IMG/VR virus record: IMGVR_UViG_3300022602_002157
Location: 13,383 to 77,382 of that record
Origin: a virus
Direction: 5' to 3' (one strand)
DNA length: 64,000 nt
Shown here: positions 35,343-56,294 of the stretch, one piece after another
Position numbering within the stretch: the stretch's first letter is position 1
Layout: every line of letters begins with the position of its first letter
Position numbers and translations under genes: made by a program
The notes under the pieces: generated by a model
The model's input: the letters and a program-made list of their open reading frames with translations, nothing else
The model's database searches: none
What the model was told of the DNA's origin: nothing

Positions 35343-36080
35343 TTAGAGTTTCGTATATACGAAATATAGTCTATTATTAGCATCTTTCTTGAATTCGTCA
35401 AGCGATAAATTAAATTTCTTGGCGAATTCATGTGCTACTTCAAAAGACCAAGCAAAAACGTCAACCCAGGGACCTTTCACATGTTGAATCCCTGGGTTTA
35501 CTCTAAAGAACATCTTTCCATTAGCCGCTAACATTTTCACACAGTTAGCAATTCTTGCTTCAATATCTTGTTTGCTATTAAAATTAATTGACCCAAGGGC
35601 AATAATAGCATCATAACTTTCATCTACTGCTGAAAATTCCAAAATATCAACCATATAATCTGCGCAGTTATTGTATGGATCAATACCAATAAGATTATTG
35701 ATTCTGCCCTTAAATTGATTATATCCACATCCAACATCTAGTACAGCCCTAGGATTAAGTCTATTGACTTCTTCAACTAGTTGCCATCCTGTATAACCAT
35801 ATATTTCAGTTTGCGGTTTCCAAATTTCTCCAAAGAACATTCCTGAATACTTGATATCTAAGTCATTAACGATTTGTTCTACAGTACCAGCATCAATATT
35901 AAAAGGTACACTAAGTGTGTTTTCTAATTTATTTTTTAATTTTGTAAGTCTAGCAGGTGTCAATGGTAACGCATTAACTACTGTGTTTTTACACAATTGG
36001 TTACGAATTTCGTCATACTTAGGTAAATTCAACGCCTCTGTCAAATTTTCCATTACAAGTTTATAAATTTTGTTGTTCAT
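35343..36080 (-). CDS. Class I SAM-dependent methyltransferase with extra N-terminal helical domain
   Basis: VLDVGCG, GIDP and YDAIIALGS. Confidence 0.85.
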   Translation of the reverse strand: MNNKIYKLVMENLTEALNLPKYDEIRNQLCKNTVVNALPLTPARLTKLKNKLENTLSVPFNIDAGTVEQIVNDLDIKYSGMFFGEIWKPQTEIYGYTGWQLVEEVNRLNPRAVLDVGCGYNQFKGRINNLIGIDPYNNCADYMVDILEFSAVDESYDAIIALGSINFNSKQDIEARIANCVKMLAANGKMFFRVNPGIQHVKGPWVDVFAWSFEVAHEFAKKFNLSLDEFKKDANNRLYFVYTKL

Positions 36081-36179
36081 TGGAATTTCCTCTATTTAAT
36101 GATAAATATTTCATGTGATATGAATTTTCATTAAATACTTATCACATACATGCATGATTCAATAAAAAGGAGAATACTC

Positions 36180-36878
36180 ATGAGTTCAGCAAAAGAATTT
36201 GTTGCGAAAATCGTAGCAGACAACCAAGCACTTTTCGAAGCATCAAAGATTAATGTCAAGGCTTACTTTGACAGCAATCCTAGCCAAGAAGCGTTAGTTG
36301 AGCATTTCGTTGGCCGTATGGTTAACGAGCGTATGAACATGGTAGAAATCAGCAAAGCAATTGCTGATATGCCTGCAAACGCAGACCCAGTAGAGTTACA
36401 ATTGTTAACTCAACAAGCACATGATGAAGCAGTACACTTCCGTTTAGTTAAGGAAGTTATTGAACACATCACTGGTTCAGAATTAGACGTTGAAGCCGCA
36501 ATCGCTGCCGAGGCTGCAAAGCCAACAGCAAAAGGTGCTGGTCTTCTTGCTAAGTATGAAGCAGAAACAGATGCAGCCGCATTAGCAGCCTATCAATTAG
36601 TTGCTGAAGGTCGTGCTGAAGCCGTTTGGAATCAAATGGCAGAATGCATTTCTGATGAATTCATCAGTGGCGCATATGCTAAGATTGCTAAGGACGAAGG
36701 TTTCCACAGCAAGATTGGCGCACGTAAATTAGAAACTTTAGTATCAGACGAAGCAACACAAGTTCGTATTGAGAAGTTAGTTGCTAATATGCGTAAAGAC
36801 TTATTCGAAATTAGTTGCAAGAACACAATGGAAGTTCCAGCTGCTAAAGAATTAGTTTCAGCCGCTTACGGATGGTAA
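36180..36878 (+). CDS. Ferritin-like di-iron protein
   Basis: Two DExxH motifs (DEAVH, DEGFH) with upstream Glu ligands. ATG 36180 behind AGGAG; TAAATA at 36132-36137. Confidence 0.8.
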   Translation: MSSAKEFVAKIVADNQALFEASKINVKAYFDSNPSQEALVEHFVGRMVNERMNMVEISKAIADMPANADPVELQLLTQQAHDEAVHFRLVKEVIEHITGSELDVEAAIAAEAAKPTAKGAGLLAKYEAETDAAALAAYQLVAEGRAEAVWNQMAECISDEFISGAYAKIAKDEGFHSKIGARKLETLVSDEATQVRIEKLVANMRKDLFEISCKNTMEVPAAKELVSAAYGW

Positions 36879-36879
36879 T

Positions 36880-37431
36880 TTGAAAATAGGATTAAGTCAA
36901 CGAATCCTATTTCATAAAGGGAGGGCGTATGATTGTATAGAACATGGTTGGTACAACCTGTTAAGCGATCATACGCTTTTCTATTTGCCTAATAGATTAG
37001 ATCAGGATTTTGATAGTATAGCAGACAACTTGGATGCGTTCATTATCACAGGTGGTGATGACAGCACACTAAGACGTACAGTTGAGATTAAGTTAGCAAC
37101 TAAAGTTATGCAACGTAATAAACCAGTGATTGGAGTATGCCATGGTGCATTTTTAATTACTGATTTATTAGGTGGTGTAGTAGAAGAAGTTGAACATCAC
37201 ATGGATACTACTCATTTTGTAATGTACAATGGTGATGTAGTAGATGTGAATAGTTATCACAACTTAGCAATTAAAAAATTACATAATAGCGGTACAGCAT
37301 TATGTATAGATGAATCGGGAAACATAGAATCATTTATCGATGGCAAATTAGCAGGTATAGTATGGCACCCAGAAAGAATGAAGACACCGTGGATGCCTAA
37401 TGAAATTAAACAATTGATTGGAGTAAAATAA
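36880..37431 (+). CDS. Class I glutamine amidotransferase / peptidase C26 (PuuD-like)
   Basis: TGGDD, GVCHG (nucleophile Cys), VNSYH and WHPE. Confidence 0.85.
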   Translation: MKIGLSQRILFHKGRAYDCIEHGWYNLLSDHTLFYLPNRLDQDFDSIADNLDAFIITGGDDSTLRRTVEIKLATKVMQRNKPVIGVCHGAFLITDLLGGVVEEVEHHMDTTHFVMYNGDVVDVNSYHNLAIKKLHNSGTALCIDESGNIESFIDGKLAGIVWHPERMKTPWMPNEIKQLIGVK

Positions 37432-37432
37432 A

Positions 37433-38098
37433 ATGATGCGAAATGTTAAAGGTGTTTTTAACACAAGCGATAGATGGCCATTAAAACTCACCAAAGTTGA
37501 AAGTAATGAATCTAAAAAGATGGATAAAACGCCCGGTACATATTATGTACTTACACGTAATGCTGACTTGATCGGAGACAATGTAAAGTTTGAAAAAGTT
37601 AACGGGGCATTTTGTTTTAATCATCATTTTACTGTTAGATGCGGGCCGCAATCATCTGCTGTCATCATTGAATATTTAGGATTACATTTAGAAGAAAGCA
37701 GATATTATGTACAGCAAGATTTGGGTATAGGAAACTTAAGTTATATGGATGGTGGTACAAACACAACTGCTGTTAATCCAGGTCGTTTAGGAGATCCAGT
37801 AGTTAACTATGTACACTTTCCTGCAAACATGTACCAAACATTGCATACACATCCAAGCCATAGAATTGGGATGATATTAAAAGGCAATGGTAAAATCGAA
37901 TTAGATAACGAAGAATACTTTGACGTAAATGAGGGTGAAGTATTTTTTATGCAAAGAAACGTATTACACAATTTTATCACAGAAGACGAACCTGTAGTAT
38001 TATATGTGTTTGCTCCTGACAGTGGTACAGGTCCTACCGATGAAGTCAATCCATTAAAGATCAGAACTTACGTTGGACAACAACGATATACAAGATGA
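37433..38098 (+). CDS. Cupin-domain protein
   Basis: HTHPSHR...G.G...GEVFFM..NVLHNF cupin motifs 1 and 2. Confidence 0.8.
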   Translation: MMRNVKGVFNTSDRWPLKLTKVESNESKKMDKTPGTYYVLTRNADLIGDNVKFEKVNGAFCFNHHFTVRCGPQSSAVIIEYLGLHLEESRYYVQQDLGIGNLSYMDGGTNTTAVNPGRLGDPVVNYVHFPANMYQTLHTHPSHRIGMILKGNGKIELDNEEYFDVNEGEVFFMQRNVLHNFITEDEPVVLYVFAPDSGTGPTDEVNPLKIRTYVGQQRYTR

Positions 38099-38799
38099 AC
38101 TTTGATGCAGACAACTTTGTTATAGTTGCATTTCCTAGATACGCAGGTGGAAAATTTTTAATCAACTGTTTAGGTCTTAGTGATGATGCAGTATTACAAG
38201 ATAAATCATTGGCAGAAAAACAATTAAATGGTAATTTTTCACATGATGATAAAATCAATTATATACTCATCAAATTATCTAATGAAGCAGATTATAAAAA
38301 TCAAAAAAACTGGATGGATTTAGATTTAGGATGTGATCTTTTGCTAGGGCATCATGAAACTTGGTATGAAAAAAAAGAACCTATACAATATTTTGATATA
38401 GTTAATACATTATCAAATAGAAGTGAAAAATTTTTTATTGTTGCACATAAGTCATACAATGTTGCAAACATAATTAAAATTTGGAAAAATGCCAAAATAA
38501 TATTTTTTACCAATACATTACATTTTAGACATTTACGAATAGGTATGGATAACCATTCAGTTCTTGACCCTAAATGGGAAACTAAATGCAAACAATTAAT
38601 TAAAGAAGAAAATTTTAAAAACCTGTATTACTTTGACACTAATAATTATTTTAGTGAAGAGAAAACAGTTAATGGTGTAAAAGAATTATACCAACAATTA
38701 AATTTAAAAGGGTTTAATGAAACATCGATTTCACTATATTATAAAGAATGGATTAAAAAATGTCTGCCATTGGAACTAGTAAAACTAAAAAACTCTTGA
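38095..38799 (+). CDS. Hypothetical, sulfotransferase/P-loop-like (AT-rich insert)
   Basis: N-terminal FPRYAGGKFL resembles a 5'-PSB loop. Confidence 0.4.
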   Translation: MNFDADNFVIVAFPRYAGGKFLINCLGLSDDAVLQDKSLAEKQLNGNFSHDDKINYILIKLSNEADYKNQKNWMDLDLGCDLLLGHHETWYEKKEPIQYFDIVNTLSNRSEKFFIVAHKSYNVANIIKIWKNAKIIFFTNTLHFRHLRIGMDNHSVLDPKWETKCKQLIKEENFKNLYYFDTNNYFSEEKTVNGVKELYQQLNLKGFNETSISLYYKEWIKKCLPLELVKLKNS

Positions 38800-39434
38800 T
38801 TATTACAGGTCCCCAAGGATCAGGTAATCATTTATTCAGTAGACTATTAAGTTTACACCCGGATGTAAGTGGATGGGAAGAATTGCTTGACAAATATTGG
38901 GTACCGAGTGATCAAGAACCCTTCGCTGAATATTGGGTAAATTCAGATAAGTTAACTATTGATCAATTTAAAGACAAAGACTTTCATTTAGCAAACGTAA
39001 GTTGTCCATTCTTTTTCGATGGCGTAAGATATGTACCTGATATCATTGGAGTTGCCAATAAAGCAAAAAGTTTGGGCATTGATGTCACTATTGCTATTAT
39101 TGTTAGAGACAAGAATATTAATAGCGAACAACAACTGCGTGTTAGAAAACAAGTAACATTACCTATCGCACAAGACTATTATTACAACACCTTATTAACT
39201 AGTGATTTTAATGTTCACTTTTTAGACCATGAGGCATTCTTTTTGCATAAACAACATTACTTGAAATATGTTGCACGTATTTTAGATTTCCCTGTTGCGT
39301 GGGATGATCCAAACATTATGAAATTTATAGACCAAGATGCAAACAGTAAATACGTAAAATACGTGGAAGAATATTGGCTCGATGAACAAGTGTTAAAAGG
39401 TTGTGAGCCTAAAGCGTTTAGGGAGCAAAAATGA
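38760..39434 (+). CDS. Sulfotransferase-like P-loop protein
   Basis: IITGPQGSGNHL..RLLSLHPDV and IIVRD. Confidence 0.6.
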   Translation: MSAIGTSKTKKLLIITGPQGSGNHLFSRLLSLHPDVSGWEELLDKYWVPSDQEPFAEYWVNSDKLTIDQFKDKDFHLANVSCPFFFDGVRYVPDIIGVANKAKSLGIDVTIAIIVRDKNINSEQQLRVRKQVTLPIAQDYYYNTLLTSDFNVHFLDHEAFFLHKQHYLKYVARILDFPVAWDDPNIMKFIDQDANSKYVKYVEEYWLDEQVLKGCEPKAFREQK

Positions 39435-39664
39435 AATTCTATGAAACTAAAAAACGAAGTTTTGTTAAGGGTGTTAGTTGGAAAATCATAGGTGGTTTAA
39501 TCACTGCTTTTATCGTTTATCAATTAGCAAAACTAGGATATGATGCAGCCAAGACAGCAACAATAGTTTTAATCTGTCAGTTTAGTGTCAATGTTGTAGC
39601 ATTCTTTATACATGACCGCGTATGGAATAAATTTATGTGGGGTAGAGAGGTAATAGAAGAATGA
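39431..39664 (+). CDS. Small 2-TM membrane protein (DUF2061-like)
   Basis: ETKKRSFVKGVSWK...HDRVWNKFMWG. Confidence 0.7.
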   Translation: MKFYETKKRSFVKGVSWKIIGGLITAFIVYQLAKLGYDAAKTATIVLICQFSVNVVAFFIHDRVWNKFMWGREVIEE

Positions 39665-40287
39665 AATATATTTTTGTAGCAGGTGCTCCTGGCAGTAAAT
39701 GGAGCAGTGTTTGTAAAAACATTTATTATAGTGATAGCATTGATAGATCAGATTACAGTAATGAAAGAACTTACTACCATGACGCATCAGGCGTAAGAGA
39801 CTTAATGCACATGGGTGCATACTTTGATCCGGGTATGGAGTTCGGAGACTTCTTCGGGGAACTCAATAAATATAGCAAAGAGGATTGTGAAGCAGAATTT
39901 GACAGGCCCTTTACAGGGGAAGGAGTTAGAATTGTCAAGAGCCACGTATTTGCACATCATATTGGATATCTTAAAAAAAATTGGCCTGATTGCCCTATTG
40001 TCCTTGTGCATCGCCCTAATGATGCTTGCTTGGGTTGGTGGGTACGTTGTGGACAGTTTACTATAACATATCCTAGTTACAACAGTTATTATAAAGATTT
40101 GAGGCATATGGCCAAACAAATCGATTTACAAAACAAAGATATTAGTGATGCTCTGTATACTCATAGATACAGAGGAGTAAAACTAGTTAACACAAATTTA
40201 CAATTATGCGATGCATTAGGAATTAAAAGAACTAAAAAGTATCGCCAAGACTATAGAAAAAACGACATAACAGTGGGTGTATTATGA
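39661..40287 (+). CDS. Sulfotransferase-like P-loop protein
   Basis: IFVAGAPGSKWS, VKSH and IVLVHR. Confidence 0.55.
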   Translation: MKYIFVAGAPGSKWSSVCKNIYYSDSIDRSDYSNERTYYHDASGVRDLMHMGAYFDPGMEFGDFFGELNKYSKEDCEAEFDRPFTGEGVRIVKSHVFAHHIGYLKKNWPDCPIVLVHRPNDACLGWWVRCGQFTITYPSYNSYYKDLRHMAKQIDLQNKDISDALYTHRYRGVKLVNTNLQLCDALGIKRTKKYRQDYRKNDITVGVL

Positions 40288-40976
40288 AAAGTAGTTGGGA
40301 CGAGACAAAAGCAAAAAGTAAGTATCACTTTGATTCTAAAAAGATAGATCCAAAGTATGACACAGTAACTAAGTTAGGTAACCTAGTAGGTGATTGGTCT
40401 AATGAATTAACAGACATTATTGCCAATGCTAAGCCTGCAACTTGGGAAACACGTGGCTATAAGGGAAAAGGAAATGACATTCCTTCACAAGATTTAGCCG
40501 CAGAAGAATATGATCTAGAACGCTATGGCATGGATCCTAAAATGACAATAACTCATATGAATTGGGAATTACCTCCTGTGTTACAAAAGATGAGTGATTT
40601 GTTTGGATTAGATGATTGTATGAATCGTATCCATGTGCAGATGCCAGGTGAAGTATGGAATCTACACATTGACAAATTACAGAAGTGGAATCCTGAACAT
40701 CCCTACTTAGTACATCGTATTATGATTCACTTAAATGATTGGGAAATGGGTCATTTTTGGGGATATGGGAATTATATTCATAGTCATTGGAAAGCAGGTG
40801 ATGTGACTACATTTGATTGGCAGAACGTTCCACATTGCACAGCAAACGCAGGACATACTCCACGTGTAACACTACAGATTACGGGTGTAGAAACTGAAAA
40901 AACTAGAGAGTTTATGAATAGATTGCGTAGATATGACAAGTATACTCTTAACCTAAACGACGGTGGTTGGTTCTAA
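40284..40976 (+). CDS. 2OG-Fe(II)/Asp-hydroxylase-like double-stranded beta-helix oxygenase
   Basis: HID (HxD), WKAGD...FD...PHCTANAG..PRVTLQITG. Confidence 0.7.
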   Translation: MKSSWDETKAKSKYHFDSKKIDPKYDTVTKLGNLVGDWSNELTDIIANAKPATWETRGYKGKGNDIPSQDLAAEEYDLERYGMDPKMTITHMNWELPPVLQKMSDLFGLDDCMNRIHVQMPGEVWNLHIDKLQKWNPEHPYLVHRIMIHLNDWEMGHFWGYGNYIHSHWKAGDVTTFDWQNVPHCTANAGHTPRVTLQITGVETEKTREFMNRLRRYDKYTLNLNDGGWF

Positions 40977-40996
40977 AAGTTAAGATAAATATATTA

Positions 40997-41584
40997 ATGC
41001 AAGCAAAAGAATTTATAACCGAGTCAGCAGCCAGTGAACTAGCGCAACGTTTGCCTGGTTTGCGTAAGCATAACTATGATACCATTGATGCATTAATGCG
41101 TCAAGTATCACAGAAGCATAAAATGACTACCAAAGCCTTGCATGATTTATTTGTTAGAAAATACAAGAAAACTCCTGATCTTTGGATCAAGCATAAACTA
41201 GATGAAAAGAATATTACTGAAAGCAAAGATTTAGATATTGAGCAGGAAGTAAAAAGATTTGTTGCTTGGGCCGCTGATAGATTGCATTTAAAACGTGTTC
41301 CAAAAATTGAATTAAGTCACGATACCAAAGACGCACAGGATAACCATCACACTGGAGCACATGTGCAAGGTGAAGACACAATTTGGGTATACGCCAAAAA
41401 TCGCAACTTAGTTGACATATTAAGAACTGTATTCCACGAATTGGTTCATGTTAGACAAGACGAAATTGGTATGCTAAAGCCAGGTGATAGTTACCCGGGT
41501 AGCCCAGTTGAAGCCATGGCAGATATGATTGCGGGCAAATTCATTAAGATTTATGGTGAAAAGCACCATCACATTTTCCAATAA
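40997..41584 (+). CDS. Zincin-like metallopeptidase with probable capsid-targeting N-terminus
   Basis: HELVH with downstream E (VEAMAD); starts MQAKEFITE; TAAATA at 40986-40991. Confidence 0.7.
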   Translation: MQAKEFITESAASELAQRLPGLRKHNYDTIDALMRQVSQKHKMTTKALHDLFVRKYKKTPDLWIKHKLDEKNITESKDLDIEQEVKRFVAWAADRLHLKRVPKIELSHDTKDAQDNHHTGAHVQGEDTIWVYAKNRNLVDILRTVFHELVHVRQDEIGMLKPGDSYPGSPVEAMADMIAGKFIKIYGEKHHHIFQ

Positions 41585-41600: not shown

Positions 41601-41628
41601 TTGACTTATCTACGCATTCTGTTATAAT
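41601..41628 (+). promoter_or_regulatory. sigma70-like promoter
   Basis: TTGACT-N16-TATAAT with an extended TG. Confidence 0.7.
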
Positions 41629-41650: not shown

Positions 41651-41911
41651 ATGTCGGATAGAACTTTTAACGCAGAAGCAAAAATTAAACTTACCCAACT
41701 TATCAACGAAGGTATGCAAGTTATGCATGAAGTTGAAACACTAAACGAGGGTTTGGCTGATACAGTCAAGGCAATTGCAGAAGAATTGGAAATCAAGCCC
41801 AGTATTCTTAAGAAAGCAATTCGTGTTGCACACAAGGCCCGTCTCGGTGAGACAAACAAAGAGAATGAAGAACTTAATACTATTCTCGAAACCGTAGGTA
41901 AAACACTTTAA
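41651..41911 (+). CDS. Small dsDNA-binding protein (T4 DsbA/GapR-like)
   Basis: 86-aa helical protein, pattern ..D.VK..AEEL.I.P..LKK.IR..HK; strong SD AAGGAG. Confidence 0.55.
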   Translation: MSDRTFNAEAKIKLTQLINEGMQVMHEVETLNEGLADTVKAIAEELEIKPSILKKAIRVAHKARLGETNKENEELNTILETVGKTL

Positions 41912-41914: not shown

Positions 41915-42526
41915 ATGCCAAGATTGGTAACATTTGGCTGTAGTTTTACCAGAGGTTGGGATTTACACGATACTCATCCTAGCAATCATACTCCTAGTAA
42001 GTTTGCATGGCCCAATGTGTTGGCTAAAAAATTAGGCTATAGTGTAGACAATCAAGCAGAGGGTGGCGCCGGTAACAGAGAAATCTTTAATAATATATTA
42101 AACTATGATTTTAAATCAGACGATTTATGTATCATAGGCTGGTCACTATTTGTAAGACTAGATGGGTTTAAATATATATCACCTACCGAGACTAAAAGAA
42201 TTTCAGTAAAAGAATTTGATAAAAACTTGGCTTTTCAAAATGCTGATTATGATTATGATCTTAGTATGAAAAACTATTTGGTTATGCAACATACTAATTT
42301 TTTACTGGATCGTAGAAACATCAAGTCTTTTAGCATTCTTTGGTCACATGATTTACATTTAAATCCAAAGCCTGATCATATTGAAATTCCCAATTTCATT
42401 GATACTGTTAGGCCTTTTAATTGTGTTTTGGATAAAGCAATTGACAATCAACACCCAGGTATACGCAGTCACAACTTGCTTGCCGACAAAATTTATGATA
42501 AAATAAAAGAATATGTCTTACATTGA
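41915..42526 (+). CDS. SGNH/GDSL-like hydrolase paralog
   Basis: FGCSFT, WP..LA, GAGN, WS...R and HPG...H. Confidence 0.6.
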   Translation: MPRLVTFGCSFTRGWDLHDTHPSNHTPSKFAWPNVLAKKLGYSVDNQAEGGAGNREIFNNILNYDFKSDDLCIIGWSLFVRLDGFKYISPTETKRISVKEFDKNLAFQNADYDYDLSMKNYLVMQHTNFLLDRRNIKSFSILWSHDLHLNPKPDHIEIPNFIDTVRPFNCVLDKAIDNQHPGIRSHNLLADKIYDKIKEYVLH

Positions 42527-45227
42527 TGCTATCCACGACAATAACGCTGACCGCATTTATGTGGTAGAGCGTAACCCACAGGGTAAACGTGAATATAAAG
42601 AATATTCTACTAACTATGTTCTTTATTATACTGACCCTAAGGGCAAGTATCGTTCACTCTATGGAGACCCTGTAAGCAGATTTAGTACACGTAAGCGTAG
42701 TGAATTTGAAAAAGAAAAGCGTATCCATAGCAGTAAAAAACTATTTGAAAGCGATATCAACGTAGTGTTTCGTTGCCTAAGCGAGAACTATCTTAAAGTT
42801 GATGCACCTAAACTACACACATGTTTCTTTGACATTGAAGTAGACTTTGATCCTGAACGTGGTTTTAGTCCCACTAGTGATCCATTCAATCCTGTTACTG
42901 CAATCAGTATGTATTTGGATTGGTTAGATCAACTAGTAACACTAGTAATTGCTCCGCGACACATGAGCAATGAAACTGCCGCACAGATTACCAGTGAGTT
43001 TGAAAACTGTATTCTGTTTACTAGTGAAGTAGAAATGTTTGAAATATTCTTTCAACTAATTGAAGATGCAGATGTATTAACTGGTTGGAACTCTGAAGGG
43101 TACGATATTCCCTACATGGTAAATCGTGTTACACGTGTGATGAGCAAGGACGACACACGTAAGTTTTGTTTAATGGGGCAATTGCCTAAAGCAAGAACAT
43201 ATGAACGTTTTGGTAAAGAAGAAACAACTTACGACTTAGTTGGTCGTATTCATATGGACTATTTGCAGTTGTACAAGAAGTATAACTATGAAAGTCGCCA
43301 CAGTTATAAACTAGACTTCATTGGTGAAATGGAAGTTGGTGAAAACAAAACTCAGTATGAAGGTACACTTGATCAATTGTATAACAAAGACTTTAAAAAG
43401 TTTATTGAATACAATCGTCAGGATACTATGTTGTTGGTGAAGATTCACAACAAACTTAAGTTTTTAGAATTGGCAAATCAACTAGCACATGAAAATACTG
43501 TGCTGTTGCCAACAGTCATGGGTAGTGTTGCAATGATTGAAATGGCAATCATGAACGAAGCCCATGAAAGGGGATTGGTTGTCCCAGATAAAAAACGAAA
43601 GGATATTCATGCAGAAGAAAGTCAGCAGGCAGCAGGTGCCTTTGTTGCTACTCCCAAAAGGGGAATCCACGAATGGGTGGGCGCAGTGGATATTAACTCA
43701 CTCTATCCCTCGGCAATTAGATCACTCAACATGGCGCCAGAAACCATCGTTGCTCAGGTCAGACAAACCCTCACAGAACAGTACATGAAAGAAAAAGGCT
43801 TACGCCTTGCAATGGAAAAGAAACGTCACAAAGATGGCGATGACGCAGTTACTGGAAGTATTCTCTGGGAAGGTTTGTTTGGTTGTTTAGAGTATACTGC
43901 CATTATGGCACAAGAGCGTGGTACAATTCTTACACTAGATTATGAAGATGGTCGTAGTGTTGAGATGAGTGCCGCAGAGATATGGAAATTGGTTTTTGAT
44001 AGTCATAATCCATATATCATCAGCGCAAACGGTACTATCTATACGTATGAGAAAGAGGGTGTGATTCCTGGTCTGCTTACACGTTGGTATAATGATCGTA
44101 AGGTAATGCAGAAGAAACTTAAAGAGGCAACCACTACTGAAGAACGTGAGTATTGGGATAAGCGACAACTGGTTCGCAAAATTTTGCTTAACTCTGCATA
44201 TGGCGCATTGTTGAATGAACATTGCCGTTTCTATGACAAGCGTATTGGTCAAAGCGTAACACTTAGTGGTCGTCAGATTGTTAAACATATGATGAGCCAA
44301 ATCAATGAGATTGTCACTGGTCAATATACACACGAAGGTGATGCTATTGTGTATGGTGATACTGATAGTTGTTATTTCAGTGCCTATGAATCGTTGAAAG
44401 ATCAAATTGAAAAAGGTGAGTTAAGTTGGAATAAAGAGTTGTGCATTAGTTTATATGACAATATTGCTGATGAAACCAATTCAACTTTCCCAGCATTCAT
44501 GGAACGTGCATTTCATGCGCCACGTAAGAACGGTGAGATCATCAAAGCAGGTCGTGAATTGATTGGTGATCGTAGTCTGTTCATCACTAAGAAACGCTAT
44601 GCTATTAATATCTTTGATAAAGAAGGCGAGCGTAAAGATGTCAATGGTAAGTTGGGTGATATCAAGGCTATGGGTCTTGACTTGAAACGTGCTGATACGC
44701 CCAAGTATGTTCAAACGTTTTTAATGGAAGTACTTGAAATGGTGCTTGGTGGTAAGGGTCGTGAAGACGTTATTGAACATATCAAAAACTTTAAGGTAGA
44801 ATTGAGTAAGCAAGACAGTTGGACTAAAGGCTCGCCCAAATCAGTGAATAAACTCACTATGTATGGAGAACTAGAAGCCAACAGTAAAACTGGTCGTGCA
44901 AATATGCCAGGTCACGTTCGTGGTGCATTGAATTACAACTATCTACGTAAAGTTAACAACGACAACTACAGCATGAAGATTGTTGATGGTATGAAGGTTA
45001 TTGTGTGTAAACTCAAAACTAATCCATTGAACTTCACAAGTATTGCGTATCCAACTGACGAACTAAGACTACCTCAATGGTTCTGTGAATTGCCATTTGA
45101 TGACAAGGCTATGGAACAAACATTGGTAGACGAAAAGATTGACAACTTGTTAAGCGTATTAGGTTGGGACTTGCGTAGCAATACTGACACTAACAGTACG
45201 TTTGACAGTTTGTTTAGTTTCGGTTAA
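42513..45227 (+). CDS. Family B DNA polymerase with 3'-5' exonuclease
   Basis: FDIE, GWNSEGYD, YNRQD, DINSLYPS, KILLNSAYG, YGDTDS and KKRY. Confidence 0.97.
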   Translation: MSYIDAIHDNNADRIYVVERNPQGKREYKEYSTNYVLYYTDPKGKYRSLYGDPVSRFSTRKRSEFEKEKRIHSSKKLFESDINVVFRCLSENYLKVDAPKLHTCFFDIEVDFDPERGFSPTSDPFNPVTAISMYLDWLDQLVTLVIAPRHMSNETAAQITSEFENCILFTSEVEMFEIFFQLIEDADVLTGWNSEGYDIPYMVNRVTRVMSKDDTRKFCLMGQLPKARTYERFGKEETTYDLVGRIHMDYLQLYKKYNYESRHSYKLDFIGEMEVGENKTQYEGTLDQLYNKDFKKFIEYNRQDTMLLVKIHNKLKFLELANQLAHENTVLLPTVMGSVAMIEMAIMNEAHERGLVVPDKKRKDIHAEESQQAAGAFVATPKRGIHEWVGAVDINSLYPSAIRSLNMAPETIVAQVRQTLTEQYMKEKGLRLAMEKKRHKDGDDAVTGSILWEGLFGCLEYTAIMAQERGTILTLDYEDGRSVEMSAAEIWKLVFDSHNPYIISANGTIYTYEKEGVIPGLLTRWYNDRKVMQKKLKEATTTEEREYWDKRQLVRKILLNSAYGALLNEHCRFYDKRIGQSVTLSGRQIVKHMMSQINEIVTGQYTHEGDAIVYGDTDSCYFSAYESLKDQIEKGELSWNKELCISLYDNIADETNSTFPAFMERAFHAPRKNGEIIKAGRELIGDRSLFITKKRYAINIFDKEGERKDVNGKLGDIKAMGLDLKRADTPKYVQTFLMEVLEMVLGGKGREDVIEHIKNFKVELSKQDSWTKGSPKSVNKLTMYGELEANSKTGRANMPGHVRGALNYNYLRKVNNDNYSMKIVDGMKVIVCKLKTNPLNFTSIAYPTDELRLPQWFCELPFDDKAMEQTLVDEKIDNLLSVLGWDLRSNTDTNSTFDSLFSFG

Positions 45228-46700: not shown

Positions 46701-47052
46701 TAGTCGTAGTAAGTATTTACAAGTTAACAGCGGTACGTCTAGTACCTATGTCAATAATTATGGCGGCAGTGTTGGAGTAGGCAATATGCGCTATAATACA
46801 AGTACACAAACTATGGAAGTGTATGATGGTACAACTTGGATTATGTTGAATATGAGTTATGCAGATGTTAACTTATCCGGTGAAGCAGAAAGTTTGCTTG
46901 ACTGGGTGCAGAAAAAGCGTGATGAAGAGTTTAGGCGTCAAGCACTAGCAGAAAGTAATCCTGCTATCAAAGACTTAGTAGAACAGATTAAAGAAAAAGA
47001 AGATCAAATCAAAATGATACAAACATTAATTAAAAAAGAGGTAACTGCTTGA
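46684..47052 (+). CDS. Hypothetical protein
   Basis: SD AAGGA; 122 aa. Confidence 0.7.
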   Translation: MLRGINSRSKYLQVNSGTSSTYVNNYGGSVGVGNMRYNTSTQTMEVYDGTTWIMLNMSYADVNLSGEAESLLDWVQKKRDEEFRRQALAESNPAIKDLVEQIKEKEDQIKMIQTLIKKEVTA

Positions 47053-48596
47053 ATCAAATAGACTTATCAGCACAGCACAAACCGGACTGGGCATTATTCT
47101 TACCCGCAGTCAGTAGTTTCTTTATTACTGGCTTGGGTAAACAACGTGAAGGTGAAAATTATTTTGACCAAACACGTATTCCTGCAGGCTTCAATGGTGA
47201 TGTTGAATGCTTGAACTTTTTGAATAGCAAGCAAGGTCTATACACTTATAAGTGGGGTTTGTATAGTGCAGGTCATGCCAACTTAGATACAACTGTTGAT
47301 GACCATGCTGAAAGTATTATTCGTAAACGTGAAAGTGGTACTTTCATGTTGGGTGATAGTGGTGGTTTTCAGATTCTTAAGTGTCAATGGCCTGCTGATT
47401 GGAAGGATCCCAACTGCCCACGTGCTATGAAAAAGCGTCAGCAAGTATTGAAGTGGATGGACACATACATGGACTATGGTATGTGTTTAGATATCCCTTC
47501 ACAATCATTAAGCACGTTTCATATCAAGGATCCAAAGACTGGTAAAAGTGCGCATGGTATCAGTACAATTGAGGAAGCGATTACTGCTACACATATTAAC
47601 AACGAATACTTTATTAAGAATCGTACAGGTGAATGTAAGTTCTTAAATGTTCTTCAAGGTCGCAATCACAGTCAAAGTGATAGTTGGTATGAAGAAATGA
47701 AAAAGTATTGTGACCCAAACATCTATCCCGACAATCATTTCAATGGTTGGGCATTTGGGGGTCAGAACAAGATTGACGTTGAATTGATGTTGAATCGACT
47801 TGTTGGCATTATCCACGATGGTTTGTTACAAGAAGGTAAGCATGACTTGATTCACTGTTTGGGTGTAAGCATTATGGAATATGCTGTATTGTTTACAGAT
47901 ATTCAACGTGCTATTCGAAAGTATCACAATCCAAAACTACAAATTACTTTTGACTGCGCAAGCCCATTCTTTAGTGCGGCTAAAGGTCTTGCATACTTTA
48001 ACAACAGTATTGAGCATGGCAAGAAATGGTCATACAGTATGGAAAAGACTGCTGAAAACAAAAACTATGCTAATGACAATCGCAAGTTTAGTGATGCAGT
48101 ATTGGCTGATGGTATTCACGATGTGTTTACTGATAGCCCAATTACTGACCGTATGATGGTTAAGGACCTTTGCTATCGTGGTCATGGCTTTATCAACCAG
48201 CAAGGTAAAGAAACCAAAACTAGTTGGGATACATTAAGTTATACACTATTGCAAGCACATAATGTTTATCAACACATTACTGCTGTGCAGGAAGCCAATC
48301 GTAAATATGAAACGGGTATTATGCCCAAGATGGTTATGAGCAAGTTTGATGATAATCATTTTGGTAGTATCATTGAAGAAATCTTTAGCCTAAACGATAG
48401 AAAAAAGAGTTTGGATTTGATTAAGCAACACTCAAGTCTTTGGACACAAATGCAAAGTGGTAGTCAAGGATTTAGTGGTAAGCGTACTGTTAATGCAATG
48501 ACCATGTTTGATCAACTGTTTGCCGTTGAACAAGAACCTGAACAGGATGAAGTCATTGAAGATGCAGACGATGAAATGGCTAATCTCATTGAATAA
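47049..48596 (+). CDS. dpdA: TGT-family DNA 7-deazaguanine transglycosylase (DpdA-like)
   Basis: DSGGFQ, LDIP, VLQG, GWAFGG, HCLG and TFD TGT-type motifs; clustered with folE/queD/queE. Confidence 0.75.
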   Translation: MNQIDLSAQHKPDWALFLPAVSSFFITGLGKQREGENYFDQTRIPAGFNGDVECLNFLNSKQGLYTYKWGLYSAGHANLDTTVDDHAESIIRKRESGTFMLGDSGGFQILKCQWPADWKDPNCPRAMKKRQQVLKWMDTYMDYGMCLDIPSQSLSTFHIKDPKTGKSAHGISTIEEAITATHINNEYFIKNRTGECKFLNVLQGRNHSQSDSWYEEMKKYCDPNIYPDNHFNGWAFGGQNKIDVELMLNRLVGIIHDGLLQEGKHDLIHCLGVSIMEYAVLFTDIQRAIRKYHNPKLQITFDCASPFFSAAKGLAYFNNSIEHGKKWSYSMEKTAENKNYANDNRKFSDAVLADGIHDVFTDSPITDRMMVKDLCYRGHGFINQQGKETKTSWDTLSYTLLQAHNVYQHITAVQEANRKYETGIMPKMVMSKFDDNHFGSIIEEIFSLNDRKKSLDLIKQHSSLWTQMQSGSQGFSGKRTVNAMTMFDQLFAVEQEPEQDEVIEDADDEMANLIE

Positions 48597-51064: not shown

Positions 51065-52251
51065 TGCGTAAACTATACTACATGGGCTTAGAGCCTTACA
51101 AAGACAGATACACACTTCAATTAACTGATTGGAACGTTGAAGTATTCAAACGCCGTGGCATTGATTATGTTATCGTTCCCGGTGACACACTTGACAACAG
51201 TAAAAGTATTGTTACTGGTCAAGTATTAGATGCACATGGTCGTAGTTATTTTGGCATGAGCCAAATGATGAACTTAGTTAAATTGATGAAAGAAGGGGAG
51301 GTCACTAGTGATGATGTTATATATTTTGAAGATATGTTTCAGCCCGGAATCGAAAGCCTTCCTTACATTCTTAATCAGGTTACTGACGATATGCGTCCTA
51401 GGGTATTTGTCCGTTGTCTTGCTCAGTCAATTGATCCAGATGATTTCGTACATGTATGGGGCATGAGCAAATGGATGGGCTTGTACGAAAAGATGGTCAA
51501 TGAATTTGTTGATGGCGTACTTGCAAGTAACGAAGAAATGGTAATGCACATGAAGATTGCAGGCTGGGAAGCACCAATCTATAATATCAGTGGGTTAGCA
51601 TTTGGTAAAGAAGAAGTAAGACGCAGAGTTCTTGATAGTGGTCAAGACATTAAATTGTTTGATGAACGTGCTATGCGTGTTGCATTTGCCGCACGTTGGG
51701 ATCAAGAAAAGCAACCAGACTTTTACATGGACTTGATTGACAAGTGGAATAACTTGTATCCAAATTCAGGTGTAGAGTTTGCTGTATTCAGTGGTAGTAC
51801 ATTACGTAGTAATAACAGTAGTTACATGGAACGCACTAACAAAATGCGTGACGAAGGTACACTTAAAGTCTATGAAAACTTAGACAAAACTAATTACTAT
51901 CTAATGTTGAATGACACCCGTGTATTGTTTAACTGTGCATTACAAGACTGGGTAAGTAATACTGTAAGCGAGGCTGATGCATTGCGTTGTAATGTGTTAT
52001 ATCCTGCTTATCGTAGTTTCCCTGAAACTTTCAGTAATGATCCTGAACGATTGTATATCCCATGGTCATTAGATGATGCAATTGCAAAGTTGCATAAACT
52101 ATTAACTGTTCAACATCCAAATATTGACAAGATCAGTACTCACACAGATGGAACCATTGATCGTATTTGTAATATTTTAGAAGGTCGTGGTCAACATTTG
52201 TTGCGTATGGATACTGATTATCGCAAGCACACAAAAGAAAGAAAGTATTAA
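51064..52251 (+). CDS. GT-B fold glycosyltransferase
   Basis: [11 protein letters not shown], and a C-terminal [11 protein letters not shown]...YP..RSFPE donor-binding-like region. Confidence 0.7.
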
Positions 52252-55654: not shown

Positions 55655-55875
55655 TGAATGAGACCAACAAGTTAGACCTACACGGTATAAGACATGAGGA
55701 TGTAAACCGTTTAGTAGAAAACTTTATTCTAATGAATCAAGGAAAAATGCCACTTACAATTGTTTGTGGCAATAGTAATAAAATGATTGAGTTAGTAGAG
55801 GCTACTATTAAACATATTGGTTGCAAAACGTTTGTTCCTAGATATGGTACTATTATTGTTAGGGACTTGTCATGA
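55651..55875 (+). CDS. Stand-alone Smr-like domain protein
   Basis: LDLHG...IVCG. Confidence 0.6.
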   Translation: MMNETNKLDLHGIRHEDVNRLVENFILMNQGKMPLTIVCGNSNKMIELVEATIKHIGCKTFVPRYGTIIVRDLS

Positions 55876-56294
55876 GAATTCTTATCATGGGTTTGCCCGG
55901 TTCAGGCAAAACAACATTAGCGGCCGCTATTGGTGCCCGTTTGTTTTTTAATAAAAAATTTACATGGTTCAATGCCGACGCTATTAGAGAACGATATAAC
56001 GATTGGGATTTTAGTGAAGAAGGACGCATACGTCAAGCAAAACGAATGCGAGAACTTTCTGATAAAGAAATAGAACAGGGTCGATTGGCAATCTGTGATT
56101 TTGTTGCGCCTACTAATGAGATTAGAGATATATTTAACGCAGACTATACAATTTGGCTTGATACCATCCGTGAAGGTCGGTATGCTGATACCAATGCTAT
56201 ATTTGTACCTCCCGAACAATATGATATTCGTGTTACAGAACAAAACGCAGAATATTGGGCAGAAGTTATTACACAGGATCTTTTAAAAAGGTAA
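55872..56294 (+). CDS. Adenylylsulfate kinase-like P-loop kinase (short)
   Basis: GLPGSGKTT, NADAIR, FSEEGR..Q..R and FVAP. Confidence 0.7.
   Translation: MRILIMGLPGSGKTTLAAAIGARLFFNKKFTWFNADAIRERYNDWDFSEEGRIRQAKRMRELSDKEIEQGRLAICDFVAPTNEIRDIFNADYTIWLDTIREGRYADTNAIFVPPEQYDIRVTEQNAEYWAEVITQDLLKR

What the first reader, a model, noticed from the sequence alone, without database searches (positions are those of the whole stretch)
35343..40976. Compact unexplained biosynthetic-type enzyme cluster in a phage
Seen: a divergent SAM methyltransferase, then a tightly overlapping run behind a TAAATA promoter. The run contains a di-iron ferritin-like protein (two DExxH), a class I glutamine amidotransferase, a cupin, two or three sulfotransferase-like proteins, a DUF2061-like membrane protein and a 2OG-type oxygenase. 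This does not match a pathway I recognise. Inference: oxidation, amidation/deamidation, methylation and sulfation chemistry together suggest synthesis or tailoring of a small molecule, or modification of a host or virion surface.
Basis: partly seen in the sequence, partly recalled or inferred. Interest (0 to 1): 0.8.

Follow-up and report, generated by a model that had tools for sequence, protein, structure and literature searches.

The report
Jumbo-phage oxidation and sulfotransferase-type tailoring cassette
An uncultured giant phage carries a tightly packed set of oxidising, methylating and sulfotransferase-like enzymes that hundreds of related phages share in shuffled form; its product is unknown and I found no paper describing it.

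Summary
The nine genes are real and sit at the stated coordinates, in a 77-kb fragment of a roughly 350-kb RaK2/Atu_ph07-like jumbo phage.

Synteny across about 160 IMG/VR loci splits the run into two modules.
- **Module A, near-universal:** a divergent SAM methyltransferase, the sulfotransferase-fold protein 39661-40287 and the Fe/2OG-type oxygenase 40284-40976. It usually comes with a secreted TctC-type carboxylate-binding protein. Natural fusions of 39661 with the oxygenase, the methyltransferase and another cluster protein tie these together.
- **Module B, optional:** the di-iron protein plus a C26-type amidotransferase, always adjacent, seen only alongside A.

The window lacks TctC and has a cupin at that position. 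Cupin and TctC never co-occur (0 of 16 against 38 of 59 loci).

Only one of the "two or three" sulfotransferase-like proteins is supported by fold. The APS-kinase-like partner lies 15 kb away and also occurs in cultured phages that lack the rest, so a PAPS donor is unproven.

My best reading is stepwise hydroxylation, sulfate-type group transfer and methylation of a carboxylate metabolite that is either imported or made in the cell (confidence 0.4). A Campylobacter-type phosphoramidate pathway is not supported.

This scan had already flagged the cluster in other genomes, and two follow-ups reached similar verdicts. I found no publication describing it.

The parts
35343..36080 (-). Divergently transcribed class I SAM methyltransferase with an extra N-terminal domain of about 100 aa (module A).
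   Evidence: Invariant VLDVGCGY motif and D134. Weak Methyltransf_25/11 hits. Present in 76/80 and 27/27 related loci. Found fused to the 39661 family in P0240 and P0244.
36081..36179 (+). Divergent intergenic region, with TAAATA at 36132-36137 and an AGGAG ribosome-binding site ahead of the ATG at 36180.
   Evidence: Sequence read directly. The motif is not enriched in the window, so promoter function is not shown.
36150..36878 (+). Di-iron helical-bundle oxygenase-type protein (module B); probable true start at 36180.
   Evidence: Invariant E / DExxH / E / DExxH. AF2 pLDDT 91.3. Fold matches both heme-oxygenase-like and ferritin-like di-metal enzymes, Z 13-16. 70-86% identical across 227 IMG/VR contigs. 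Distant cellular relatives sit next to FNR-type 2Fe-2S reductases.
36880..37431 (+). Stand-alone class I glutamine amidotransferase / peptidase C26-type gamma-glutamyl-amide hydrolase (module B).
   Evidence: Pfam Peptidase_C26 4e-13 and GATase 1e-11. Best NCBIfam hit is gamma-glutamyl-CDP-amidate hydrolase at 76 bits, below the 250-bit cut-off. Best PDB hit is Lin1909/3fij. Invariant C87-H163-E165. In the same locus as the di-iron gene in 78/80 loci, usually directly downstream.
37433..38098 (+). Cupin-domain metalloenzyme (accessory). It occupies the slot that holds TctC in other loci.
   Evidence: Cupin_2 3e-9 and AraC_binding 6e-9. Present in 16/80 loci. Never seen together with TctC/TctA: 0/16 against 38/59, Fisher p 1.5e-6, not corrected for relatedness.
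38095..38799 (+). Accessory protein of unknown fold.
   Evidence: Only a weak Glyco_transf_61 hit, E 0.01. Present in 5/80 loci. No profile similarity to the other P-loop families.
38760..39434 (+). P-loop-like protein with invariant GPQGSGNH and an RD motif; possible second sulfotransferase-fold transferase.
   Evidence: Alignment A4. No Pfam hit in any of 19 members. TPST at E 0.5. hhalign to the 39661 family gives E 0.014 over 122 collinear columns. Present in 58/80 and 11/27 loci.
39431..39664 (+). DUF2061 small membrane protein (accessory).
   Evidence: Pfam PF09834, 9.5e-9. Present in 8/80 loci.
39661..40287 (+). Sulfotransferase-fold transferase (module A core).
   Evidence: AF2 pLDDT 89.8. 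VIA-align top 8 hits are all sulfotransferases: TPST1 Z 11.4, TPST2 10.9, olefin-synthase ST domain 9.8, Stf9 9.1; kinases reach at most 8.2. Foldseek top hits are TPST2, 3rnl and Cpz8. Weak Sulfotransfer_3 hit. Found fused to the oxygenase, the methyltransferase and F33.
40284..40976 (+). Fe(II)/2-oxoglutarate-type oxygenase, Asp/Asn-beta-hydroxylase-like (module A core).
   Evidence: Invariant H128-x-D130, H184, R194. Atlas neighbours are viral PF05118 clusters, score 0.96. Start overlaps the 39661-family stop (ATGA) in 74 of 116 adjacent pairs. Fusion protein P0239 has 12 member sequences.
40967..41584 (+). HExxH (FHELVH) protein overlapping the oxygenase gene by 10 nt; membership of the cassette uncertain.
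   Evidence: ORF and motif. Follows the oxygenase in 24/80 and 12/27 loci, on the DNA-polymerase side. Only a PHROG of unknown function matches.
55872..56294 (+). APS-kinase-like P-loop kinase, 15 kb downstream between folE and queD; a possible donor-supplying partner.
   Evidence: Pfam APS_kinase 4.6e-11. PDB APS kinases at E 2e-5 with P-loop, NADxxR and DFVAP motifs aligned. The orthologue lies inside the cassette in 27/80 relatives, often fused to an HxGH nucleotidyltransferase. It also occurs in cultured phages that lack the cassette.

Best explanation
This is a conserved, operon-like tailoring cassette of an uncultured clade of RaK2/Atu_ph07-related jumbo phages. It is built from two modules.

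**Module A** is the methyltransferase 35343-36080, the sulfotransferase-fold protein 39661-40287 and the Fe/2OG oxygenase 40284-40976. I infer that they work together, possibly as a complex, on one acceptor. The steps would be hydroxylation, transfer of a sulfate-type group from a 3'-phosphonucleotide donor (PAPS or a look-alike), and methylation. The acceptor is most likely a small carboxylate metabolite. In most relatives it would be captured outside the cell by a phage-encoded secreted TctC binding protein and imported through a TTT transporter. In this window the cupin enzyme 37433-38098 sits in TctC's place and would instead make the acceptor from a cellular metabolite.

**Module B** is the di-iron oxygenase 36180-36878 plus the C26 gamma-glutamyl-amide hydrolase/amidotransferase 36880-37431. 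It is an optional add-on that oxidises and de-glutamylates (or amidates) a precursor or the same scaffold.

- **Shown:** gene presence, co-conservation, fusions, folds and catalytic motifs.
- **Inferred:** the order of steps, the donor, the acceptor and the product, which remains unknown.
For: - **Co-conservation in shuffled order.** This holds across 80 plus 79 IMG/VR loci.
- **Natural fusions.** 39661 is found fused to the oxygenase (P0239, 12 members), to the methyltransferase (P0240, P0244) and to F33 (P0241-3). ATGA start-stop overlap occurs in 74/116 pairs of 39661 and the oxygenase.
- **Fold and motifs.** 39661 has a sulfotransferase fold. The oxygenase has an invariant HxD...H...R and AspH-like Atlas neighbours.
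- **Transporter.** TctC with a Sec signal peptide sits inside the cassette in 32/80 and 24/27 loci, and TctA in others. Cupin and TctC are mutually exclusive at the same position.
- **Module B.** It is seen only where module A is also present, while A often occurs without B. The GATase triad is intact and the protein is C26/PuuD-like. The di-iron ligands are invariant, and distant cellular relatives pair with FNR-type reductases, as O2-activating oxygenases do.
- **Possible donor supply.** An APS-kinase-like gene lies in the cassette in 27/80 loci and is present in 3/3 near-complete genomes.
- **Strength of selection.** The di-iron protein is as conserved as the DNA polymerase, median 77% against 78%.
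Against: - No substrate, donor or product is identified.
- 39661 misses the Pfam threshold, and its 3'-phosphate-binding Ser is not conserved.
- The APS-kinase-like/nucleotidyltransferase fusion has a full-length orthologue in Xylella phage Sano. Kinase-domain homologues occur in other cultured phages where tblastn finds no 39661, oxygenase or di-iron homologue, so it is not dedicated to this cassette.
- No ATP sulfurylase was found among the window proteins scanned.
- The best structural matches of 39661 are protein-tyrosine sulfotransferases, and the oxygenase resembles protein/lipid hydroxylases. A macromolecular acceptor is therefore not excluded.
- The cupin/TctC exclusion is not corrected for shared ancestry.
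- The window itself has no transporter.
Confidence: 0.4

Rival explanations
1. The cassette modifies a macromolecule on the cell envelope or the virion: lipid A/LPS, a capsule glycan, or a secreted or structural protein. Modification would be by hydroxylation, sulfation and methylation, for example to block superinfection or to decorate particles.
For: The best structural matches of 39661 are tyrosylprotein sulfotransferases. The oxygenase's nearest named relatives are Asp/Asn beta-hydroxylase-family proteins. From established knowledge, that family includes the lipid A hydroxylase LpxO and the ornithine-lipid hydroxylase OlsC. The same window carries heptose-1-phosphate adenylyltransferase-like, GDP-mannose-type, epimerase and glycosyltransferase genes. 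Several different P-loop transferase families per phage fit multi-site decoration.
Against: A secreted solute-binding protein and TctA inside the cassette point to uptake of a small carboxylate. 39661 and the oxygenase show no signal peptide or membrane anchor on inspection of their sequences. No conserved candidate acceptor protein or glycosyltransferase travels with the cassette.
Confidence: 0.25
2. The cassette is catabolic or nutrient-scavenging. The phage imports an organic acid (for example a sulfonated or N-containing carboxylate) and oxidatively strips it of sulfur, nitrogen or carbon to feed replication.
For: TTT transporter parts sit in the cassette. There are three O2-dependent metalloenzyme types. 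The C26 hydrolase resembles the last step of gamma-glutamyl-mediated amine catabolism, the PuuD type. Distant cellular relatives of the di-iron protein lie in regulator/binding-protein/reductase neighbourhoods typical of catabolic loci.
Against: A sulfotransferase-fold protein fused to a methyltransferase or an oxygenase is typical of tailoring, not breakdown. No lyase, dehydrogenase or sulfite/ammonia-assimilating enzyme is conserved with it. The window's version has no transporter.
Confidence: 0.12
3. The cassette elaborates the phage's nucleic-acid modification. It would be an extension of the 7-deazaguanine pathway encoded 6-20 kb downstream.
For: The cassette lies between structural and envelope genes and the DNA polymerase, near folE, queD and a radical-SAM gene. 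The APS-kinase-like gene sits either inside the cassette or inside the deazaguanine cluster (window and G405). All five large relatives carry both gene sets.
Against: Co-occurrence is clade-wide and therefore uninformative. A periplasmic binding protein and TctA make no sense for DNA chemistry. No DNA-binding, glycosylase or transglycosylase domain is part of the cassette.
Confidence: 0.08
4. The cassette is a rewired Campylobacter-type phosphoramidate (MeOPN) pathway. The GATase would release an amidate from a gamma-glutamyl nucleotide. The APS-kinase-like enzyme would add the 3'-phosphate. The sulfotransferase-fold proteins would transfer the phosphoramidate, and the methyltransferase would cap it.
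For: The best NCBIfam hit of the GATase is gamma-glutamyl-CDP-amidate hydrolase, 76 bits over nearly its full length, with the next family at 35 bits. A kinase-plus-nucleotidyltransferase fusion mirrors the logic of Cj1415/Cj1416. A methyltransferase is present.
Against: The GATase score is far below the 250-bit equivalog cut-off. In the oxygenase-seeded set the kinase fusion occurs in 7 loci, none of which has the GATase. No glutamine-kinase family matched any protein scanned. The nucleotidyltransferase domain matches NMNAT-type models; from memory, not checked here, Cj1416 is a different, sugar-nucleotidyltransferase type. The fusion also exists alone in Sano-like phages.
Confidence: 0.05

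Closest known systems
Natural-product tailoring sets that pair a 2OG hydroxylase, a PAPS sulfotransferase and a dedicated APS kinase (e.g. cylindrospermopsin CyrI/CyrJ/CyrN; Nod-factor NodS/NodH/NodPQ). Cited from general knowledge, not tested here.
   Same: The same enzyme classes are combined: Fe/2OG oxygenase, sulfotransferase-fold transferase, SAM methyltransferase and an APS-kinase-like gene nearby.
   Different: There is no detectable sequence membership in those families. The cassette is phage-encoded. It has no scaffold-building enzyme (PKS, NRPS or glycosyltransferase). It is coupled to a TTT solute-binding protein or a cupin, and to a di-iron/C26 pair. The kinase is not exclusive to the cassette.
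Tyrosylprotein sulfotransferases and bacterial Stf/olefin-synthase sulfotransferase domains (PDB 5wri, 3ap3, 4gox, 2z6v)
   Same: These are the best fold matches of 39661-40287: Z 11.4-9.1, with 157-172 aligned residues spanning model residues 1-202. The protein has an N-terminal strand-loop-helix with a conserved Gly/Ser-rich loop.
   Different: Identity is 11-14%. The protein falls below the Pfam thresholds. The 3'-phosphate-binding Arg...Ser pair is only half conserved (R118 invariant, Ser not). At 208 aa it is smaller than these enzymes.
Di-metal helical-bundle oxidases: heme-oxygenase-like (CADD, HrmI, UndA, BesC) and ferritin-like (aldehyde-deformylating oxygenase, PaaA, R2)
   Same: The helical bundle has six invariant carboxylate/His ligand candidates. 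Z is 15.9 to CADD, 15.2 to an ADO-type protein and 15.0 to HrmI.
   Different: The two fold classes cannot be told apart at these Z values for an all-helical protein. The E/ExxH/E/ExxH pattern is the ferritin-like one. Only 107 clusters at 50% identity exist in 1.84 billion representatives, and no characterised member is among them.
Campylobacter jejuni Cj1417 (gamma-glutamyl-CDP-amidate hydrolase) and other peptidase C26 enzymes (PuuD, Lin1909)
   Same: A stand-alone class I GATase fold with a Cys-His-Glu triad. It gives the best family-level hits.
   Different: The score is well below the equivalog cut-off. The rest of the MeOPN pathway is absent or does not co-vary with it.
Tripartite tricarboxylate transporters (TctABC / Bug proteins)
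   Same: Relatives of this cassette encode a bona fide TctC (Pfam 2e-18; PDB 7ndr 2e-12) with a signal peptide, and in 9 loci a TctA (Pfam 3e-84).
   Different: The proteins are virus-encoded. Identity to proteobacterial TctC in the 400 genomes sampled is at most 30%. TctC is absent from this window, where a cupin occupies the slot.

Membership tests
PAPS-dependent sulfotransferase (P-loop sulfotransferase fold), protein 39661-40287 | Sulfotransferase fold | tested here: met
   AF2 pLDDT 89.8. The VIA-align top 8 of 48,161 chains are all sulfotransferases, Z 11.4-8.2. The best kinases tie the lowest two of these at Z 8.2, about 3 units below the top match. Foldseek's top hits agree.
PAPS-dependent sulfotransferase (P-loop sulfotransferase fold), protein 39661-40287 | 5'-phosphosulfate-binding loop (PKxGTTW-like) after strand 1 | tested here: inconclusive
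   An invariant G8-x-P10-G11-S12-[KR]-W14-S15 sits at the equivalent position. Its order differs from the canonical motif.
PAPS-dependent sulfotransferase (P-loop sulfotransferase fold), protein 39661-40287 | 3'-phosphate-binding Arg...Ser motif | tested here: inconclusive
   R118 after a beta-strand is invariant. The Ser about 8 residues on is not conserved; W126 and W127 are invariant instead.
PAPS-dependent sulfotransferase (P-loop sulfotransferase fold), protein 39661-40287 | Reaches the Pfam gathering score for a Sulfotransfer family | tested here: not met
   Sulfotransfer_3 scores 17.9 bits against a cut-off of 27. A PDB profile search found nothing.
PAPS-dependent sulfotransferase (P-loop sulfotransferase fold), protein 39661-40287 | Uses PAPS as donor | not testable with these tools
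   This needs binding or activity assays.
Sulfotransferase-like, proteins 38760-39434 and 38095-38799 | Detectable relation to sulfotransferases or to 39661 | tested here: inconclusive
   38760: no Pfam hit in 19 members, TPST at E 0.5, hhalign to the 39661 family at E 0.014. 38095: nothing found.
Fe(II)/2-oxoglutarate dioxygenase (Asp/Asn beta-hydroxylase-like), protein 40284-40976 | HxD/E...H iron triad and a basic residue for the 2OG C5 carboxylate | tested here: met
   H128, D130, H184 and R194 are invariant in 18 diverse homologues.
Fe(II)/2-oxoglutarate dioxygenase (Asp/Asn beta-hydroxylase-like), protein 40284-40976 | Pfam membership or double-stranded beta-helix fold | tested here: inconclusive
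   Asp_Arg_Hydrox at E 0.028 and PhyH at E 0.08, each in 1 of 18 members. Atlas feature neighbours are PF05118 clusters at 0.96. No structure was predicted.
Class I glutamine amidotransferase / peptidase C26, protein 36880-37431 | Cys-His-Glu triad and Pfam gathering score | tested here: met
   Peptidase_C26 scores 50 bits (cut-off 20.5) and GATase 45 bits (cut-off 22.8). C87, H163 and E165 are invariant.
Gamma-glutamyl-CDP-amidate hydrolase (Cj1417 equivalog, NF045546) | Equivalog cut-off score | tested here: not met
   76.3 bits against a cut-off of 250.
C. jejuni MeOPN donor pathway | Co-occurrence of the hydrolase with the 3'-kinase and nucleotidyltransferase; presence of a glutamine kinase | tested here: not met
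   The kinase fusion is present in 7 oxygenase-seeded loci, all without the GATase. No glutamine-kinase family matched any protein scanned.
Ferritin-like di-iron carboxylate oxygenase, protein 36180-36878 | E / ExxH / E / ExxH ligands on a four-helix core | tested here: met
   E60, E93/H96, E153 and E183/H186 are invariant. They are also kept in distant cellular relatives. The bundle is helical at pLDDT 91.
Heme-oxygenase-like di-iron oxidase (CADD/UndA/BesC/SznF type), protein 36180-36878 | HO-like seven-helix fold with a 3-His/3-carboxylate site | tested here: inconclusive
   The top Z of 15.9 is to CADD, but ferritin-like chains score 13-15 as well, and that range is common for helical bundles. 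The ligand pattern fits the ferritin-like type better.
Class I SAM-dependent methyltransferase, protein 35343-36080 | Motif I (VLDxGCG) and an acidic residue at the end of strand 2 | tested here: met
   VLDVGCGY and D134 are invariant. Pfam hits are only sub-threshold, 19.6 bits against 27.
Adenylyl-sulfate (APS) kinase, protein 55872-56294 | Pfam gathering score and the P-loop/DGD/ISP motifs | tested here: inconclusive
   The Pfam score of 43 bits exceeds the cut-off of 21. However, only the first 90 of 152 profile positions match, and DGD reads NAD and ISP reads VAP.

The most novel reading that the evidence does not exclude
The phage runs an import-and-tailor pathway of its own. It secretes a periplasmic binding protein, or in this window uses a cupin enzyme, to obtain a carboxylate. 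A coupled oxygenase/sulfotransferase-fold/methyltransferase machine, helped in some lineages by a new di-iron enzyme family and a gamma-glutamyl hydrolase, then converts it into a previously unknown sulfated or otherwise nucleotide-donor-derived metabolite that the infection needs. Such a metabolite could be a signal, a protectant or an inhibitor of host or rival functions.
Probability: 0.25. Interest if true: 0.85.

Novelty: new variant of a known kind. Interest (0 to 1): 0.62.

Why it matters
Phage auxiliary genes are usually single enzymes borrowed from central metabolism. A multi-enzyme tailoring pathway is different, for several reasons:
- It is as conserved as the DNA polymerase.
- It recurs in hundreds of aquatic jumbo-phage contigs.
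- It comes with its own solute-binding protein.

Such a pathway would mean these viruses make or remodel a specific metabolite during infection.

The cassette also contains an almost virus-only di-iron enzyme family (107 clusters among 1.84 billion representatives) and at least two orphan P-loop families. The TctC protein offers a direct experimental handle, because ligand screening could name the substrate.

Tried and rejected
Contexts of distant di-iron relatives came from a genome-contig scan instead.
- **PDB sequence searches gave nothing significant.** This applies to profile searches for the di-iron protein, 39661, 38760, the oxygenase and the methyltransferase.
- **Pfam scans gave no usable hits.** I scanned every member of the 38760 and oxygenase alignments.
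- **A joint fold of the 39661-oxygenase fusion was abandoned.** MAFFT misaligned the half-length rows.
- **Paralogy among the P-loop candidates could not be shown.** hhalign was tried on 38095, 38760, 39661 and F33.
- **Host inference failed.** A TctC search over 400 proteobacterial genomes found at most 30% identity and returned no taxon names.
- **Late-promoter motifs are not enriched, and no convincing terminator lies inside the run**.
- **No longer, fused form of the di-iron protein was found**.
- **The MeOPN phosphoramidate idea was tested by co-occurrence and rejected.** It arose.
- **The view that the APS-kinase/nucleotidyltransferase fusion is a dedicated donor-maker was weakened.** Sano-like cultured phages carry it alone.
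- **No cultured phage carries the cassette.** tblastn against 50,697 phage records found no di-iron or oxygenase homologue, and only a 33%-identical 39661 relative in a marine single-cell virus.
- **Six literature searches and two targeted paper look-ups found no description of the cassette**.

Full report
**Where the window comes from.** The window is bases 13383-77382 of a 77-kb IMG/VR virus record that CheckV rates 22% complete, which implies a genome of roughly 350 kb. Almost all long ORFs run on the + strand. A T4-type DNA polymerase (phrog_262, E 3.5e-201) lies at 42513-45227. Its nearest cultured relatives, at 42-48% identity, are the jumbo phages Sinorhizobium Phosso, Agrobacterium Atu_ph07 and Klebsiella RaK2. 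Near-complete relatives of 345-354 kb exist in IMG/VR.

**The observation.** They are separated by 1 nt or overlap by 4-40 nt from 36878 to 40976. Family scans confirm the following:
- a class I GATase / peptidase C26 (above the Pfam cut-offs);
- a cupin (Cupin_2, 3e-9);
- DUF2061 (9.5e-9);
- only sub-threshold hits for the methyltransferase, the ferritin-like protein and 39661 (Sulfotransfer_3, E 0.004).

Alignments of diverse homologues supply the missing evidence:
- The methyltransferase keeps VLDVGCGY and D134.
- The di-iron protein keeps E60, DE93xxH96, E153 and DE183xxH186.
- The GATase keeps C87/H163/E165.
- 40284-40976 keeps H128-x-D130, H184 and R194, the Fe/2OG signature. Its nearest named ESM-Atlas clusters are viral Asp/Asn beta-hydroxylase families.

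The di-iron gene most likely starts at 36180, behind an AGGAG site. TAAATA is present at 36132. However, neither TAAATAC nor TATAAATA is enriched in the window, and I found no convincing terminator in the run, so the promoter remains an assumption.

**Folds.**
- *Di-iron protein.* It folds confidently (pLDDT 91.3) into a helical bundle. This matches heme-oxygenase-like di-metal oxidases (CADD Z 15.9, HrmI 15.0, UndA 13.9, BesC 13.1). It matches ferritin-like enzymes about equally well (an ADO-type protein 15.2, R2 13.3, PaaA-type 13.1). For all-helical models this Z range does not separate the two classes. The ligand pattern is the ferritin-like one.
- *39661-40287.* It folds at pLDDT 89.8. 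Its eight best matches among 48,161 representative chains are all sulfotransferases: TPST1 Z 11.4, TPST2 and tick TPST 10.9, olefin-synthase ST domain 9.8, Stf9 9.1, Stf1 8.9, NDST1 and 3-OST5 8.2. Nucleotide kinases reach at most 8.2. Foldseek agrees. So it is not an ordinary kinase. The canonical 3'-phosphate-binding Ser is not conserved, however.
- *38760-39434.* It has an invariant GPQGSGNH loop and an RD motif. There is no Pfam hit in 19 members. Similarity to TPST (E 0.5) and to the 39661 family (hhalign E 0.014) is only marginal.
- *38095-38799.* It shows no such signal.

Thus one of the three proposed sulfotransferases is supported, one is possible and one is not supported.

**Synteny.**
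- *Di-iron-seeded scan.* A scan of IMG/VR seeded with the di-iron protein found 227 relatives at 70-86% identity. In the 80 loci fetched, the counts were methyltransferase 76, GATase 78, 39661 77, oxygenase 58, 38760 58, cupin 16, DUF2061 8 and 38095 5. Gene order is shuffled.
- *Oxygenase-seeded scan.* An independent scan seeded with the oxygenase found at least 551 relatives. Among 27 loci with at least 6 kb on both sides, the methyltransferase was present in 27 and 39661 in 25. The di-iron protein was present in only 4 and the GATase in 8.

The run is therefore composite. Module A is the methyltransferase, 39661 and the oxygenase, and it is near-universal. Module B is the di-iron protein plus the GATase. 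The two B genes share a locus in 78 of 80 cases, usually directly adjacent. Module B was seen only alongside A.

**Extra genes in relatives.** Relatives carry genes the window lacks:
- a TctC-type binding protein (Pfam 2e-18; PDB 7ndr 2e-12) with a clear Sec signal peptide, in 32/80 and 24/27 loci;
- TctA (3e-84) plus a second secreted binding protein, in 9 loci;
- DUF6552;
- a 340-aa P-loop-like family, F33.

**New evidence for functional coupling.** A search for longer relatives of 39661 found three kinds of natural fusion:
- 39661 + oxygenase (P0239, 433 aa, a cluster of 12 sequences; the same architecture as L004:4695-5996);
- 39661 + the cassette's methyltransferase (P0240, P0244);
- F33 + 39661 (P0241-P0243).

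In 74 of 116 adjacent pairs the oxygenase start overlaps the 39661-family stop as ATGA. These proteins therefore almost certainly act on one substrate, perhaps as a complex.

A second new pattern concerns the cupin. The cupin and the TctC/TctA genes occupy the same slot after the GATase and never co-occur: 0 of 16 cupin loci against 38 of 59 others. Fisher p is 1.5e-6, uncorrected for relatedness, and the cupin loci span di-iron identities down to 67%. I read this as two alternative ways to obtain the acceptor: import it, or make it. This window uses the cupin and has no TctC.

**The donor question.** An APS-kinase-like gene lies inside the cassette in 27/80 relatives. It is often fused to an HxGH (NMNAT-like) nucleotidyltransferase. 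In the window the kinase-only form sits at 55872-56294, between folE and queD. It aligns to solved APS kinases over its first 87 residues, with P-loop, NADxxR and DFVAP in place of DGDxxR and ISP.

All three near-complete genomes carry both the kinase and 39661, between 2 and 82 kb apart. However, the kinase has 47-53% identical homologues in cultured Xylella, Stenotrophomonas, Xanthomonas, Clavibacter and Ralstonia phages. Xylella phage Sano gp35 is a full-length orthologue of the fusion (40% identity, E 1e-61). tblastn finds no 39661, oxygenase or di-iron homologue in those phages. The kinase is thus not dedicated to this cassette, and a PAPS donor is plausible but unproven. No ATP sulfurylase was seen among the window proteins scanned.

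**The phosphoramidate idea.** The GATase's best NCBIfam hit is the Campylobacter gamma-glutamyl-CDP-amidate hydrolase, at 76 bits with the next family at 35. Together with a kinase, a nucleotidyltransferase and a methyltransferase, this suggested a MeOPN-like pathway. It fails on four counts:
- The score is far below the 250-bit cut-off.
- The kinase fusion occurs in seven oxygenase-seeded loci, none of which has the GATase.
- No glutamine kinase was found.
- The nucleotidyltransferase is NMNAT-like.

By PDB profile the GATase is closest to the C26 enzyme Lin1909 and to GuaA-type subunits. Being stand-alone, it is more likely a gamma-glutamyl-amide hydrolase than an ammonia-channelling subunit.

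**The di-iron family.** An exhaustive profile search of 1.84 billion representatives found only 107 clusters. Most are fragments of the viral clade. A few distant full-length cellular relatives (23-25% identity) keep the ligands. They occur in Pseudonocardia, Saccharopolyspora, Gaiellales, Nitratireductor, Mesorhizobium and a Bacillus. In nine of those loci they sit beside an FNR-type NAD-binding/2Fe-2S reductase, along with regulators and a periplasmic binding protein. That arrangement is typical of an O2-activating oxygenase that needs an electron donor. The substrate is unknown. No fused form was found.

**Context and rivals.**
- The same window encodes folE, a PTPS/QueD-like protein, a radical-SAM protein, a phosphoribosyltransferase, heptose-phosphate adenylyltransferase-like and mannose-type enzymes, an epimerase and a glycosyltransferase.
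- All five large relatives also carry folE and the 515-aa protein at 47049-48596. Co-occurrence with the deazaguanine genes is therefore clade-wide and uninformative.
- The TPST-like and AspH-like resemblances leave a macromolecular target (envelope lipid or glycan, or a protein) as the main rival.
- The secreted binding protein and TctA favour a small carboxylate.

**Novelty.** Six full-text literature searches and two targeted paper look-ups found no description of the cassette. This scan's own index shows the same cluster noted in dozens of other windows. Two earlier follow-ups reached similar verdicts: a sulfation-type tailoring operon, and not a phosphoramidate pathway. I read those notes only after forming my own view.

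- the two-module split;
- the fusion evidence;
- the cupin/TctC exclusion;
- the finding that the kinase fusion also lives alone in cultured phages;
- the reductase-linked cellular relatives of the di-iron protein.

**Verdict.** The feature is real, strongly conserved and unexplained. Its enzyme classes are known, but the combination, the viral setting and the product are not.

Noticed in passing
window 54165-58724: There is a 7-deazaguanine-type gene set: folE (GTP_cyclohydroI, 3e-61), a PTPS/QueD-like gene (56374-56880) and a radical-SAM gene (57870-58724). Interleaved with it are a heptose-1-P adenylyltransferase-like gene (54999-55463), the APS-kinase-like gene and a phosphoribosyltransferase (57209-57700). 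An IMPDH/GMP-reductase-family gene lies at 52187-53326.
   Followed up: partly
L285 (Xylella phage Sano NC_042344.1) 5992-6729: Sano gp35, annotated 'kinase', is a full-length orthologue (40% identity) of the APS-kinase-like + HxGH nucleotidyltransferase fusion. Kinase-domain homologues (39-53% identity) also occur in Salvo, Bacata, Stenotrophomonas, Xanthomonas and Clavibacter phages, RsoM2USA and phiRSL1. The function of this widespread phage enzyme is unknown; NadR-like NAD salvage is one possibility.
   Followed up: partly
L090, L091, L092, L111 (Nitratireductor, Mesorhizobium, Hyphomicrobiales, Prauserella) around 7900-9760: Distant cellular relatives of the phage di-iron protein are followed by an FNR-type NAD-binding/2Fe-2S reductase with a DmmA-like N-terminal domain. 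This looks like an uncharacterised two-component oxygenase family.
   Followed up: partly
window 19180-21357: A 725-aa protein whose first ~90 residues form a cytidylyltransferase-like HxGH domain. That domain weakly resembles the nucleotidyltransferase half of the kinase fusion. The rest matches only DUF6934.
   Followed up: no
window 40967-41584: An HExxH (FHELVH) protein overlaps the oxygenase gene by 10 nt. In many relatives it travels between the cassette and the DNA polymerase. Only a PHROG of unknown function matches it.
   Followed up: partly
window 41601-41628: The best sigma-70-like promoter match of the region (11/12, extended -10 TG) lies just after the HExxH gene and ahead of the small conserved ORF 41651-41911.
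   Followed up: no
L123 (IMGVR_UViG_3300006128_000563): A second IMG/VR contig, from a different sample, encodes a 100% identical oxygenase protein. It is probably the same or a near-identical virus.
   Followed up: no
L052, L061, L079 about 10700-13600: Some relatives carry tandem duplications of module A genes, in the order oxygenase, methyltransferase, oxygenase, methyltransferase, 39661. In this arrangement the methyltransferase is co-directional with the other genes.
   Followed up: no
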